64,000 nucleotides of DNA, taken from the NCBI RefSeq assembly GCF_053078305.1, contig NZ_CP166879.1. One strand, given 5' to 3'. Each line of letters opens with the position of its first letter. Positions within the stretch are counted from its first letter, which is position 1. A program made the position numbers. Shown one piece after another: positions 30,401 through 33,400 of this stretch.

Positions 30401-33400
30401 GAAAATAAAGAGGCGTTACAGATTTCCCGTTTCCTCGCCGCCATTAATGGCCTGATGGGGGATAAACACGACGACATGGTGGCGGATGATATGGAAAACC
30501 GCCAGTCGTATGATGCACCGATGGCGCTGGATAGCGATATTCGCCAGCGCTTAGAGCTGCTGATTTCGCGTTTTCCGCTATAACCGGAGCAATGATGTCA
30601 TCTCGTTTGATTATTGCGCTGATTATCATGCTCTTAGCCCCGGGTGTGCAGGCACACAATTTCGTCACTGGCAAAACGGTTACCCCTGTTTATATTCAGG
30701 AAGGCGGCGAGCTGCTTCTGAATAGCGACGACGAAATTCACTACCAAAAGTGGAACAGCACACAATTGGCGGGAAAAGTCCGCATTATCCAGTATATCGC
30801 CGGGCGTAAGTCAGCGAAGAAGAAGAACTCACTATTAATTAAAGCGGTTGAAGCGGCAAACTTTCCGCAGGATCGTTTTCAGCCCACCACCATTGTGAAC
30901 ACCGATGATGCCATCTTTGGTACTGGCTATTTTGTTGTTGGCAAAATCGAAAAAAATAAACGCCGCTATCCGTGGGCGCAATTCGTTATCGACGGCAATG
31001 GACAGGGACGCGTTGCCTGGCGCTTGCCGGAGCAGAGTTCAACCATTCTGGTGCTGAATAAAGCCGGGCAAATTCAGTGGGCAAAGGACGGCAGCCTGAC
31101 GCCGGTAGAGGTAGATCATGTCATTGCGCTGGCGCAGAAACTGATCAATGAATAAAAAATTCAAAGGATTGAGGGCGTTAGTGAGATGAAGCTGGTTGAA
31201 CACTACATCATGCGTGGTACGCGCCGTCTGGTGCTGATTATCGTCGGTTTTCTGATCTTTATTTTCGCCAGCTACTCCGCACAGCGTTATCTGACCGAAG
31301 CGGCAAATGGGACATTAGCTCTTGATGTTGTGCTGGATATCGTTTTCTACAAAGTGCTGATTGCACTGGAGATGTTGTTACCTGTTGGTCTGTATGTGTC
31401 AGTTGGCGTGACGCTAGGGCAGATGTATACCGACTCGGAAATTACCGCTATCTCTGCGGCGGGGGGCAGTCCGGGACGCTTGTACAAAGCTGTTCTTTAT
31501 CTGGCGATACCGCTAAGTATTTTTGTCACCCTTCTGTCGATGTATGGTCGTCCGTGGGCTTATGCGCAGATTTATCAACTGGAGCAGCAGTCGCAGTCGG
31601 AGCTGGATGTTCGCCAGTTGCGGGCAAAGAAATTTAACACTAACGATAACGGACGAATGATCCTTTCGCAGACGGTTGATCAGGATAATAATCGCCTGAC
31701 TGACGCGCTGATTTATACTTCTACTGCCAATCGAACCCGCATTTTCCGCGCCCGTTCGGTTGATGTGGTTGACCCATCTCCCGAGAAACCGACCGTTATG
31801 TTGCACAACGGCACCGCCTATCTTCTCGATCATCAGGGGCGTGACGACAACGAACAGATCTACCGTAATCTGCAATTACATCTGAATCCGCTGGATCAAA
31901 GCCCTAACGTCAAACGCAAAGCAAAATCGGTCACGGAGCTGGCGCGCTCCGTCTTTCCGGCCGATCATGCCGAACTGCAATGGCGACAAAGCCGTGGCCT
32001 GACCGCATTGTTGATGGCGCTGCTGGCCATTTCATTAAGTCGGGTAAAACCGCGGCAAGGGCGATTTTCAACGTTATTGCCACTGACGTTGCTGTTTGTT
32101 GCCATTTTTTATGGCGGCGACGTCTGCCGTACGCTGGTGGCTAACGGCGCGATTCCCCTCATTCCTGGTTTGTGGTTAGTGCCCGGACTCATGCTAATGG
32201 GCCTGCTGATGCTGGTCGCACGCGACTTCTCTTTGCTGCAGAAATTTTCCCGATGAATGTTTTCAGTCGCTATTTAATCCGTCATCTCTTTCTCGGTTTT
32301 GCCGCCGCCGCAGGGTTATTGCTGCCGCTTTTTACTACCTTCAACCTGATTAACGAACTGGATGATGTCAGCCCGGGCGGTTATCGCTGGACTCAGGCGG
32401 TGCTGGTGGTGCTGATGACCTTACCGCGTACACTGGTCGAACTTTCGCCGTTTATCGCATTATTGGGAGGGATTGTTGGCCTGGGGCAGTTATCGAAAAA
32501 CAGTGAGCTTACCGCCATTCGCAGCACGGGGTTTTCTATCTTCCGTATTGCACTGGTGGCGCTGGTTGCCGGGATATTGTGGACTGTTTCGTTAGGCGCG
32601 ATAGATGAGTGGGTGGCGTCGCCATTGCAGCAACAGGCGCTGCAAATCAAATCGACCGCCACCGCGTTAGGGGAGGACGATGACATTACCGGCAATATGC
32701 TGTGGGCCAGGCGCGGCAATGAATTTGTGACGGTGAAATCGCTGAACGAGCAGGGCCAGCCGGTGGGCGTGGAGATATTTCATTATCGCGACGATCTCTC
32801 GCTCGAATCCTACATTTATGCACGCAGTGCCACCATTAAAGACGACAAAATGTGGATCCTGCATGGTGTGAATCATAAAAAATGGCTTAACGGTAAAGAA
32901 ACGCTGGACACATCAGATAATCTTGCCTGGCAATCGGCCTTCACCAGTATGGATCTTGAAGAGCTATCGATGCCGGGGAATACTTTTTCTGTCCGTCAGC
33001 TTAATCATTACATCCATTATTTGCAGGAAACCGGGCAACCCAGCAGCGAATACCGCCTTGCACTGTGGGAAAAACTGGGGCAACCCATCCTGACCCTGGC
33101 GATGATTTTGCTGGCTGTGCCGTTTACCTTTAGTGCCCCGCGCTCGCCAGGGATGGGTAGCCGTCTCGCTGTAGGTGTCATCGTTGGCTTACTCACCTGG
33201 ATCAGCTATCAAATCATGGTCAATCTGGGATTGCTATTTGCGTTAAGCGCACCTGTTACCGCGCTCGGTTTACCGATAGCGTTCGTGCTGGTGGCGTTGA
33301 GCCTGGTGTATTGGTATGACAGACAACATTAAACCCGCCGTGGCGCAACACCACGGCGGGCTCACATTACTGCTTCAGAGTAGCAAATGCCTGAATGATG

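What the first reader, a model, noticed from the sequence alone, without database searches (positions are those of the whole stretch)
33334..33360. Perfect 10-bp hairpin exactly at the convergence point of the export and biosynthesis operons
The 34-bp gap between the lptG-like stop and the AOS stop is almost entirely a cccgccgtgg-N7-ccacggcggg hairpin. Lacking strong U-tracts on either side, it may be a bidirectional terminator or an RNA-stability element, and it prevents convergent read-through between the two halves of the putative lipid system.
Basis: seen in the sequence. Interest (0 to 1): 0.3.

Follow-up and report, generated by a model that had tools for sequence, protein, structure and literature searches.

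The report
Terminator hairpin between converging sphingolipid operons
The hairpin is real and conserved, but it is an ordinary end-of-operon stem-loop in E. coli: most likely a terminator for the already described sphingolipid-synthesis operon, and at most a weaker stop or RNA-protecting structure for the transport operon running towards it.

Summary
CCCGCCGTGG (33334-33343), a 7-nt loop, and CCACGGCGGG (33351-33360) fill 27 of the 34 nt between two converging stop codons. The window is E. coli chromosome. The "AOS" gene is serine palmitoyltransferase (spt), the last gene of aasR-epi-acpR-spt, a dihydroceramide-synthesis cluster described in E. coli BL21. The other gene is a second-copy LptG.

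The hairpin is not chance. It occurs once per genome in 4112 of 5426 complete E. coli genomes. It shows two compensatory pair changes across Escherichia species. Other genera carry unrelated but equally strong stem-loops right after spt, whatever the neighbouring gene.

The two strands differ. On the spt strand the stem is 12 bp (-24.2 kcal/mol) and is followed by UUUAAUGUUGU, a tail in the top 1.1% of window positions, so it looks like an intrinsic terminator. On the lptG strand no U tract follows. There it could only act as a pause site or 3'-end protecting stem-loop, or be a by-product of the palindrome.

It is not a REP element and matches no Rfam family. No transcript data were available, so function is inferred. 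This is a new member of a known kind, of low interest.

The parts
33334..33343 (.). Left arm of the inverted repeat, CCCGCCGTGG
   Evidence: Sequence read; perfect inverted-repeat scan.
33344..33350 (+). Loop on the + strand RNA (CGCAACA, 7 nt). On the - strand RNA only 33346-33348 stay unpaired (UUG), because 33344/33350 and 33345/33349 form G-C and U-G pairs.
   Evidence: Folds; pair counts at alignment columns 25-34 and 26-33.
33351..33360 (.). Right arm of the inverted repeat, CCACGGCGGG
   Evidence: The common allele G33356A (at least 736 genomes) lies in this arm.
33320..33333 (-). U-rich tail of the - strand hairpin (5'-UUUAAUGUUGUCUG-3' on the spt transcript). It overlaps the stop codon and the last three codons of the LptG-like gene on the other strand.
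   Evidence: Terminator scan hit on the - strand only. Tail score -4.0, top 1.1% of window positions. Conserved in all Escherichia sequences aligned, although the coding constraint of lptG2 could also explain that.
33361..33366 (+). Six-nt spacer (CTCACA) between the stem and the complement of the spt stop codon. It begins the U-poor + strand tail CUCACAUUACUGCUU.
   Evidence: + strand tail score -2.07, equal to the window mean.
32253..33332 (+). Second-copy LptG-like permease gene (lptG2), the last gene of the + strand run yghS-yghR-yghQ-orf274-ytfJ-like-lptF2-lptG2 (26861-33332).
   Evidence: ORFs; RefSeq annotation of a 99.8% identical strain; NCBIfam TIGR04408, 306 bits against a cut-off of 240.
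33367..34539 (-). spt, serine palmitoyltransferase, the last gene of the - strand operon aasR (35730-37418), epi (34819-35733), acpR (34539-34787), spt.
   Evidence: NCBIfam NF047599, 599.5 bits against a cut-off of 500; E. coli BL21 homologues ECD_02851-02854 described in PMC9386255.

Best explanation
The palindrome is an ordinary operon-end stem-loop whose selected function lies mainly on the - strand. There it is the Rho-independent (intrinsic) terminator of the aasR-epi-acpR-spt operon, which makes the sphingolipid precursor. As RNA polymerase leaves spt, the transcript folds into a 12-bp, G+C-rich hairpin (-24.2 kcal/mol) followed directly by UUUAAUGUUGU. Hairpin formation at the weak rU:dA hybrid then releases the transcript some 7-9 nt past the stem, inside the last codons of the opposing lptG2 gene. 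The same hairpin afterwards shields the mRNA 3' end from 3'-to-5' exonucleases.

A DNA palindrome folds in both transcripts, so the yghSRQ-lptF2G2 mRNA also carries a 10-bp hairpin 1 nt after its stop codon. With no U tract it is unlikely to release polymerase by itself. Its most likely role there is a pause site and a stable 3' end to which transcripts are trimmed after termination further downstream, whether by Rho or by collision with polymerases coming from spt.

Shown here: the anatomy, the single-copy status, the conservation, the covariation and the strand asymmetry. Inferred: every step involving polymerase, Rho, ribosomes or nucleases.
For: (1) Anatomy. The - strand has a 12-bp stem, a 3-nt loop and a T-rich tail, and only this strand is called by the terminator scan. 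Its tail score of -4.0 is in the top 1.1% of positions and matches the pitB terminator (-4.09) in the same window. The + strand tail scores -2.07, the background mean.

(2) Position. The element sits at the 3' end of two tightly packed gene runs.

(3) Not a repeat family. It occurs once per genome in 4112 of 5426 complete E. coli genomes, and Rfam gives no match.

(4) Conservation of structure rather than sequence.
- Across 10 Escherichia sequences, 98.3% of pair cells are standard pairs on the - strand. Two pairs changed on both sides (C-G to U-A, G-C to A-U), and partner columns slid by 1-3 positions give only 32-58% pairing.
- In 32 orthologous loci from Enterobacterales, Pseudomonas and a Caulobacteraceae MAG, a strong stem-loop follows spt, usually 0-15 nt after the stop. 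The sequences are unrelated between genera, and the next gene may be lptG2, ytfJ or something else.
- Perfect stems of at least 8 bp occur in 53% of these loci, against 1.6% of 960 control windows.
- Several of these stem-loops are textbook A-tract/hairpin/T-tract terminators: Pantoea L029, Pluralibacter L016 and Mangrovibacter L017/L018.

(5) Strand asymmetry in natural variants. G33356A, present in at least 736 genomes, leaves a G.U wobble in the - strand RNA (-22.0 kcal/mol) but a C.A mismatch in the + strand RNA (-14.6). The E. whittamii G.U pair and the U.G/C-G/U-A series at columns 25-34 also pair only on the - strand.

(6) Other perfect hairpins of at least 10 bp in this window mostly sit at gene 3' ends too.

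(7) Literature. Stable stem-loops without U tracts mark and protect the 3' ends of Rho-dependent E. coli transcripts (PMC6061677).
Against: - No transcript 3'-end data exist for this locus in anything I could search, so termination is inferred from sequence alone.
- The U tract is interrupted (UUUAAUGUUGU) and overlaps lptG2 codons, so its conservation may reflect coding constraint.
- The stem starts only 6 nt after the spt stop codon. An intrinsic terminator placed a few bp after a stop codon was almost fully repressed by the terminating ribosome in vivo, with efficiency rising only beyond about 18-30 bp (PMC4824070).
- Orthologous hairpins in Pseudocitrobacter, Hafnia, Sodalis and some Serratia have no U tract on the spt strand. 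A U-tract-independent role may therefore be the conserved one.
- One species representative (Escherichia sp. E1V33) carries a change that pairs only on the + strand.
- Downstream of the + strand hairpin there is no C-over-G excess (C15/G12 in 60 nt, 26/26 in 100 nt). The Rho part of the + strand model therefore has no sequence support.
Confidence: 0.6

Rival explanations
1. Collision-type bidirectional terminator. The hairpin releases neither polymerase by itself. Instead it acts as a strong pause site in both directions, so that polymerases converging from lptG2 and spt meet head-on at a fixed position. Trailing polymerases then drive release, as proposed for hundreds of convergent E. coli gene pairs.
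For: The element lies between convergent genes, folds in both transcripts, and lacks a U tract on the + strand. Orthologous hairpins in several genera lack U tracts on both sides. Ju et al. 2019 and Wang et al. describe such elements as not resembling intrinsic terminators and not depending on Rho, with the stem-loop needed to fix the collision site (bioRxiv 10.1101/2022.10.23.513370).
Against: The - strand looks like a conventional intrinsic terminator. A hairpin follows spt even where no convergent gene is close, for example in Serratia proteamaculans, Mangrovibacter and Pantoea, where yghQ lies about 3 kb away on the same strand. The model needs both operons to be transcribed at the same time, which is unknown. 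The glcC/yghO convergent pair 5.6 kb away has a 6-nt gap and no hairpin, so convergence alone does not demand one.
Confidence: 0.2
2. A pure RNA 3'-end stability element on both strands. Transcription of both operons ends further downstream (by Rho or diffusely). [quoted passage not shown]
For: Dar and Sorek found that nearly all Rho-dependent E. coli transcripts end just after stable stem-loops lacking U tracts, and that these protect against PNPase and RNase II (PMC6061677). The stem sits 1-6 nt from the stop codons, a distance at which ribosomes repress intrinsic termination (PMC4824070). Downstream of the - strand hairpin there is a C-over-G excess (C19/G10 in 60 nt).
Against: The - strand tail is in the top 1.1% for U-richness, and many orthologues have canonical U tracts. 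No C-over-G excess follows the + strand hairpin.
Confidence: 0.15
3. A DNA-level element: a palindromic protein-binding site, a REP-like repeat, or a recombination or rearrangement scar at the junction of two gene modules.
For: The repeat is a perfect palindrome. The junction between the spt module and the yghQ/lptFG module is rearranged between genera.
Against: It is single copy per genome, so it is not REP; real REP clusters in the window look different. Compensatory changes keep pairing while changing sequence. Other genera have non-homologous hairpins at the same place, which argues against sequence-specific recognition. The location between two stop codons is not where operators are expected.
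Confidence: 0.03
4. A chance palindrome with no function.
For: About 0.5 perfect 10-bp hairpins are expected per shuffled 64-kb window.
Against: The window has 9 such hairpins, mostly at gene ends. This one fills a 34-nt convergent gap, is kept in 4112 genomes, covaries, and has structural counterparts after spt in 32 loci from other taxa.
Confidence: 0.02

Closest known systems
Rho-independent (intrinsic) transcription terminators of E. coli
   Same: On the - strand there is a G+C-rich 12-bp stem, a 3-nt loop and a U-rich tail beginning directly after the stem, all located after the last gene of an operon.
   Different: The U tract is interrupted after three U residues and lies inside the coding end of the opposing gene. 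The stem starts only 6 nt after the stop codon. The + strand has no U tract, so the element is not a symmetric A-tract/hairpin/U-tract bidirectional terminator like yqhH/ygiQ (2458-2499) or pitB/yghT (25948-25994) in the same window.
Bidirectional terminators between convergent genes (Ju et al. 2019, cited in Wang et al.; Wang et al., bioRxiv 10.1101/2022.10.23.513370)
   Same: A single hairpin-encoding element lies in a short gap between convergent genes. Overlapping 3' ends are predicted, and at least one direction does not look intrinsic.
   Different: There are no transcript-end data for this locus. One direction does look intrinsic. A hairpin persists after spt in genomes where the convergent partner is absent.
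3'-terminal protective stem-loops of Rho-dependent transcripts (Dar and Sorek 2018, PMC6061677)
   Same: The + strand has a stable stem-loop of terminator-like size and energy, with no U tract after it and no strong A tract before it.
   Different: The mild C-over-G enrichment reported downstream of such ends is not seen on the + strand here. Rho dependence is untested.
REP / BIME elements
   Same: An extragenic palindrome at gene 3' ends in E. coli.
   Different: It is single copy per genome with no similarity to REP sequences. True REP clusters occur elsewhere in the window, at 10569-10840 and 21671-21792.

Membership tests
Intrinsic (Rho-independent) terminator, - strand (spt operon) | Stable G+C-rich stem-loop | tested here: met
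   12 bp, loop of 3 nt, -24.2 kcal/mol, z-score -5.2.
Intrinsic (Rho-independent) terminator, - strand (spt operon) | U-rich tract immediately 3' of the stem | tested here: met
   The tail is UUUAAUGUUGUCUG. It passes the scan criterion of at least 5 T in 8. Tail score -4.0, top 1.1% of window positions. It is moderate rather than strong, because it is interrupted after 3 U residues.
Intrinsic (Rho-independent) terminator, - strand (spt operon) | Lies downstream of the last gene of a transcription unit | tested here: met
   It lies 6 nt after the spt stop codon. The four genes aasR-epi-acpR-spt overlap or abut one another.
Intrinsic (Rho-independent) terminator, - strand (spt operon) | Factor-independent release of RNA polymerase at the site | not testable with these tools
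   This needs in vitro transcription or 3'-end mapping. The close stop codon may repress termination in vivo (PMC4824070).
Intrinsic terminator, + strand (lptG2 operon); that is, a symmetric bidirectional intrinsic terminator | U-rich tract immediately 3' of the stem on the + strand | tested here: not met
   The tail is CUCACAUUACUGCUU, with score -2.07, equal to the background mean (38th percentile). The scan does not call it on the + strand.
Collision-type bidirectional terminator (Ju 2019, cited in Wang et al.; Wang 2022) | Hairpin-encoding element between a convergent gene pair | tested here: met
   34-nt gap, with a hairpin forming in both transcripts.
Collision-type bidirectional terminator (Ju 2019, cited in Wang et al.; Wang 2022) | Overlapping, sharply defined 3' ends of both convergent transcripts that depend on convergent transcription and not on Rho | not testable with these tools
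   This requires SEnd-seq or Term-seq, promoter knock-outs and bicyclomycin treatment.
Protective 3' stem-loop of Rho-dependent transcripts (Dar and Sorek 2018), + strand | Stable stem-loop not followed by a U-rich sequence | tested here: met
   -20.8 kcal/mol and a U-poor tail.
Protective 3' stem-loop of Rho-dependent transcripts (Dar and Sorek 2018), + strand | C-over-G enrichment (rut-like sequence) just downstream | tested here: inconclusive
   C15/G12 in 60 nt and C26/G26 in 100 nt on the + strand. The - strand shows C19/G10 in 60 nt.
REP / BIME repeat family | Many copies per genome | tested here: not met
   Median of 1 place per genome, maximum 2, at an E-value limit of 1. The arm sequence is not enriched in the window: 10 matches with at most 1 mismatch, against 5.6 expected.
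Any Rfam family | Match to a curated covariance model | tested here: not met
   No hit overlaps 33300-33400, even at an E-value limit of 10.

The most novel reading that the evidence does not exclude
The shared hairpin could be a coupling device between sphingolipid synthesis and its dedicated Lpt-like export. The two mRNAs would end with at least 27 nt of perfectly complementary, overlapping 3' sequence. Transcription of one operon could then tune the other, either by positioned polymerase collision or by 3'-3' RNA duplex formation and RNase III cleavage. The common G33356A allele weakens only the lptG2-side hairpin by about 6 kcal/mol, and would act as a natural variant shifting the balance between synthesis and export.
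Probability: 0.07. Interest if true: 0.4.

Novelty: new member of a known kind. Interest (0 to 1): 0.1.

Why it matters
The finding matters little beyond annotation. It marks the likely 3' boundary of the E. coli aasR-epi-acpR-spt operon and of the neighbouring yghSRQ-lptF2G2 run. That boundary is useful to anyone cloning, deleting or measuring expression of this sphingolipid locus, which is poorly studied and absent from K-12. The G33356A allele gives a ready-made natural test of whether the + strand hairpin does anything. The cross-genus pattern, a hairpin always present but a U tract only sometimes, is a small additional example of U-tract-less 3' stem-loops at enterobacterial operon ends.

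Tried and rejected
- **REP/BIME or another dispersed repeat:** rejected. The element is single copy per genome and the arm motif is not enriched in the window.
- **Known RNA family:** rejected. Rfam at an E-value limit of 10 over 31-36 kb gives only two unrelated weak hits elsewhere.
- **Symmetric bidirectional intrinsic terminator:** rejected. The + strand tail is at background level.
- **First control for 'hairpin after spt':** the best bulged stem-loop of up to 70 nt in 110-nt windows discriminated poorly. Observed mean was -23.2 and coding controls averaged -18.7 kcal/mol (p = 3e-5, but 51% of controls reached -17.6). I replaced it with a perfect-stem measure, which separates well (53% against 1.6%).
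- **Loop-only intermediate allele (A to G in the loop without the stem change):** 0 genomes. The intermediate is the stem change G33356A alone (672 genomes).
- **Literature on this hairpin or on transcript ends at this locus:** none found. Only the gene cluster itself is described.
- **lptG2 3' end where it is not convergent with spt:** only one usable case, Pluralibacter L016. There an extra gene follows lptG2 co-directionally, and the terminator sits at the new convergence point. This is too little to decide which operon 'owns' the hairpin.
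Full report
**Observation**

The sequence is as described. CCCGCCGTGG lies at 33334-33343, a 7-nt loop CGCAACA at 33344-33350, and CCACGGCGGG at 33351-33360. The + strand ORF stops at 33330-33332 (TAA) and the - strand ORF stops at 33367-33369. The gap is therefore 34 nt, and the hairpin occupies 27 of them.

Folded as RNA, the + strand gives a 10-bp stem at -20.8 kcal/mol. The - strand gives a 12-bp stem with a 3-nt loop at -24.2 kcal/mol, because U-G and G-C pairs form that are A.C and C-G on the other strand. Z-scores are -4.0 to -6.5 against dinucleotide shuffles.

A perfect hairpin of at least 10 bp is expected about 0.5 times per shuffled window, whereas the window has nine. 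What makes this one non-random is its placement and its conservation, not its mere existence.

**Where we are**

The window is E. coli chromosome. A 901-nt query around the hairpin matches 4118 of 5426 complete E. coli genomes at 90-100% identity. RefSeq annotation of a 99.8% identical strain gives this gene order:

- pitB, then yghT on the opposite strand;
- rightward: yghS, yghR, a yghQ-like flippase, a hypothetical protein, a YtfJ-family protein, lptF, lptG;
- leftward, converging on lptG: spt, acyl carrier protein, NAD-dependent epimerase/dehydratase, fatty acyl-AMP ligase;
- then yghO, glcC and glcDEF.

NCBIfam confirms the names above their curated cut-offs:

| Protein | Bits | Cut-off |
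|---|---|---|
| spt | 599.5 | 500 |
| fatty acyl-AMP ligase | 869 | 600 |
| LptF | 319 | 230 |
| LptG | 306 | 240 |
| YtfJ | 211 | 151 |

The cluster is already in the literature. Padilla-Gomez et al. (PMC9386255) describe the E. coli BL21(DE3) genes aasR (ECD_02851), epi (ECD_02852), acpR (ECD_02853), spt (ECD_02854) and aca = yghO (ECD_02850) as the five dihydroceramide genes, and they assayed the E. coli B enzyme. The Caulobacter sphingolipid region likewise carries second copies of LptF, LptG and LptC plus a flippase, proposed to transport the lipid (PMC11324152). None of these papers discusses the hairpin.

**Not a repeat, not a known RNA**

A 39-nt query centred on the hairpin finds one place per genome (median 1, maximum 2) in 4112 genomes at an E-value limit of 1. 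The arm motif is not enriched in the window. Rfam gives nothing at the site even at an E-value limit of 10. The REP/BIME clusters that do occur in the window, at 10569-10840 and 21671-21792, look quite different.

**The two strands are not equivalent**

The consensus terminator scan calls the site only on the - strand, where the tail is TTTAATGTTGTCTG. I applied a TransTermHP-style tail score (formula from memory: x multiplied by 0.9 for T and by 0.6 otherwise, summed over 15 nt). The results are:

- The - strand tail scores -4.0, which is in the top 1.1% of all positions on both strands of the window. It equals the tail of the pitB terminator (-4.09).
- The + strand tail CTCACATTACTGCTT scores -2.07, which is the background mean.

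The U tract of the - strand element is the complement of the lptG2 stop codon and its last three codons. The predicted spt 3' end therefore lies inside the end of lptG2, and the two mRNAs would overlap.

**Conservation within E. coli and Escherichia**

Exact-match counts for the main alleles:

| Allele | Genomes |
|---|---|
| Window type | 1386 |
| One extra A in the loop | 1187 |
| G33356A | 672 |
| C33361T (flank; extends the stem) | 391 |
| G33356A plus a loop A>G | 64 |
| Loop-only intermediate | 0 |

G33356A is informative. In the + strand RNA it creates a C.A mismatch and the energy falls to -14.6 kcal/mol. In the - strand RNA it is a G.U wobble and the energy is -22.0 kcal/mol.

I aligned ten Escherichia sequences as the - strand:

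- 98.3% of pair cells are standard pairs.
- Two pairs changed on both sides: C-G to U-A in the representative labelled E. coli SCPM-O-B-8794, and G-C to A-U in E. whittamii.
- The innermost wobble pair shows U-G, C-G and U-A.
- Sliding the partner columns by 1-3 positions drops pairing to 32-58%.

One sequence (Escherichia sp. E1V33) has the opposite pattern, pairing only on the + strand. The asymmetry in favour of the - strand is therefore suggestive rather than conclusive. Strain PAR has a deletion that removes the right arm together with the spt C-terminus.

**Conservation of the feature, not the sequence, across genera**

A genome-collection scan with the SPT protein returned 55 loci. In the 32 with the aasR-epi-acpR-spt arrangement or a close relative, a strong stem-loop follows the spt stop codon, usually within 0-15 nt. 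The taxa are Escherichia, Pseudocitrobacter, Citrobacter, Hafnia, Sodalis, Serratia, Pluralibacter, Mangrovibacter, Rosenbergiella, Pantoea, Pseudomonas, Stutzerimonas and a Caulobacteraceae MAG. The hairpin sequences are unrelated between genera.

The neighbour varies. It is lptG2 in Escherichia, Pseudocitrobacter, Citrobacter and Hafnia. It is a ytfJ-like gene in Rosenbergiella, and something else in Serratia, Mangrovibacter and Pantoea.

Perfect stems of at least 8 bp occur within 80 nt of the stop in 53% of loci, against 1.6% of 960 control windows from the same loci. A first, looser energy measure discriminated poorly.

Some of these hairpins are canonical A-tract/stem/T-tract terminators (Pantoea, Pluralibacter, Mangrovibacter). 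Others have no U tract on either side (Pseudocitrobacter, Hafnia, Sodalis). The conserved requirement therefore seems to be 'a stable stem-loop right after spt', with a U tract as an optional addition.

**Comparison inside the window**

Other convergent junctions show the normal range:

- Textbook bidirectional terminators occur at yqhH/ygiQ (2458-2499) and pitB/yghT (25948-25994).
- A U-tract-less hairpin occurs at yghB/yqhC (7126-7149).
- REP clusters occur at yghA/exbD and yghU/hybG.
- Nothing at all is found in the 6-nt gap between glcC and yghO.

The hairpin under study is an unexceptional member of this set.

**Mechanism**

The best-supported reading is an intrinsic terminator for the spt operon on the - strand, which then doubles as a 3'-end protecting structure. 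On the + strand the same palindrome folds but lacks a U tract. Three possibilities remain for that strand:

- It is a stable end-point for transcripts terminated further on, as Dar and Sorek showed for Rho-dependent E. coli transcripts (PMC6061677).
- It is a pause site that positions head-on polymerase collisions, as in the model of Ju et al. and Wang et al..
- It is simply a by-product of the palindrome.

Sequence does not decide between these. The C-over-G signature expected downstream of Rho-type ends is absent on the + strand (C15/G12 in 60 nt) and, oddly, present on the - strand (C19/G10).

There is a real caveat for any co-transcriptional role. The stem starts 1 nt after the lptG2 stop codon and 6 nt after the spt stop codon. 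Li et al. found an intrinsic terminator almost fully repressed at such distances by the terminating ribosome, with efficiency recovering only beyond about 18-30 bp (PMC4824070).

**Verdict**

The categories were right, the claim about U tracts was wrong for one strand, and the gene context is already known. This is a new, undescribed instance of a very well known kind of element. Interest is low. Nothing about function has been measured, and the decisive experiments are simple 3'-end mapping and read-through assays in a strain that carries the locus.

Noticed in passing
window 38958-38963: The convergent genes yghO (the N-acyltransferase 'aca' of the ceramide pathway) and glcC have stop codons only 6 nt apart, with no hairpin or U tract on either strand. 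Their transcripts must overlap or terminate inside the opposing gene.
   Followed up: partly
window 33356 (allele G33356A): A common E. coli allele (672 genomes exactly, plus at least 64 with an extra loop change) weakens the + strand hairpin from -20.8 to -14.6 kcal/mol. It leaves the - strand hairpin nearly intact (G.U wobble, -22.0). This is a natural strand-specific variant.
   Followed up: yes
L062 (E. coli strain PAR, NZ_CP012379.1 3254542-3254729): A small deletion removes the right arm of the hairpin and the C-terminal end of spt, which RefSeq annotates as a pseudogene.
   Followed up: partly
window 6143-6166: A perfect 10-bp/4-nt-loop palindrome, ATTTCTCCAGAGTGCTGGAGAAAT, lies in the divergent yqhC-yqhD promoter region. 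Unlike most other perfect hairpins in the window it is not at a gene 3' end, so it is a likely regulator-binding site.
   Followed up: no
window 10569-10840 and 21671-21792: REP/BIME-type repeat clusters fill the convergent gaps yghA/exbD and yghU/hybG. A separate terminator hairpin with a T6 tail lies at 10804-10832.
   Followed up: no
window 26861-33332 and 33367-38957: About 24% of complete E. coli genomes (1314 of 5426) lack the hairpin, and 1308 lack the 901-nt lptG2/spt segment around it. From my own knowledge (not tested here), K-12 has an IS5-associated deletion between yghQ and yghO. That would explain why this sphingolipid locus is little studied.
   Followed up: partly
L012 and L022 (Serratia sp. 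M24T3): This genome has two spt loci: one with the full aasR-epi-acpR-spt set, and one with only acpR-spt. Each is followed by a similar CATGCTGC...GCAGCATG hairpin.
   Followed up: no
L016 5174-5976 (Pluralibacter MAG): A 232-aa gene is inserted between lptG2 and spt, co-directional with lptG2. A canonical A-tract/hairpin/T-tract terminator sits at the new convergence point with spt.
   Followed up: partly
window 32172-32256: The longest ORF for the LptG-like gene starts at GTG 32172 and overlaps lptF2 by 85 nt. RefSeq uses ATG 32253, which gives a 4-nt ATGA overlap with the lptF2 stop and suggests translational coupling.
   Followed up: partly
window 1-647: The first 647 bases of the window do not align to the otherwise 98.5-99.6% identical strain A16. 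A perfect 11-bp hairpin at 133-159 lies in this stretch.
   Followed up: no
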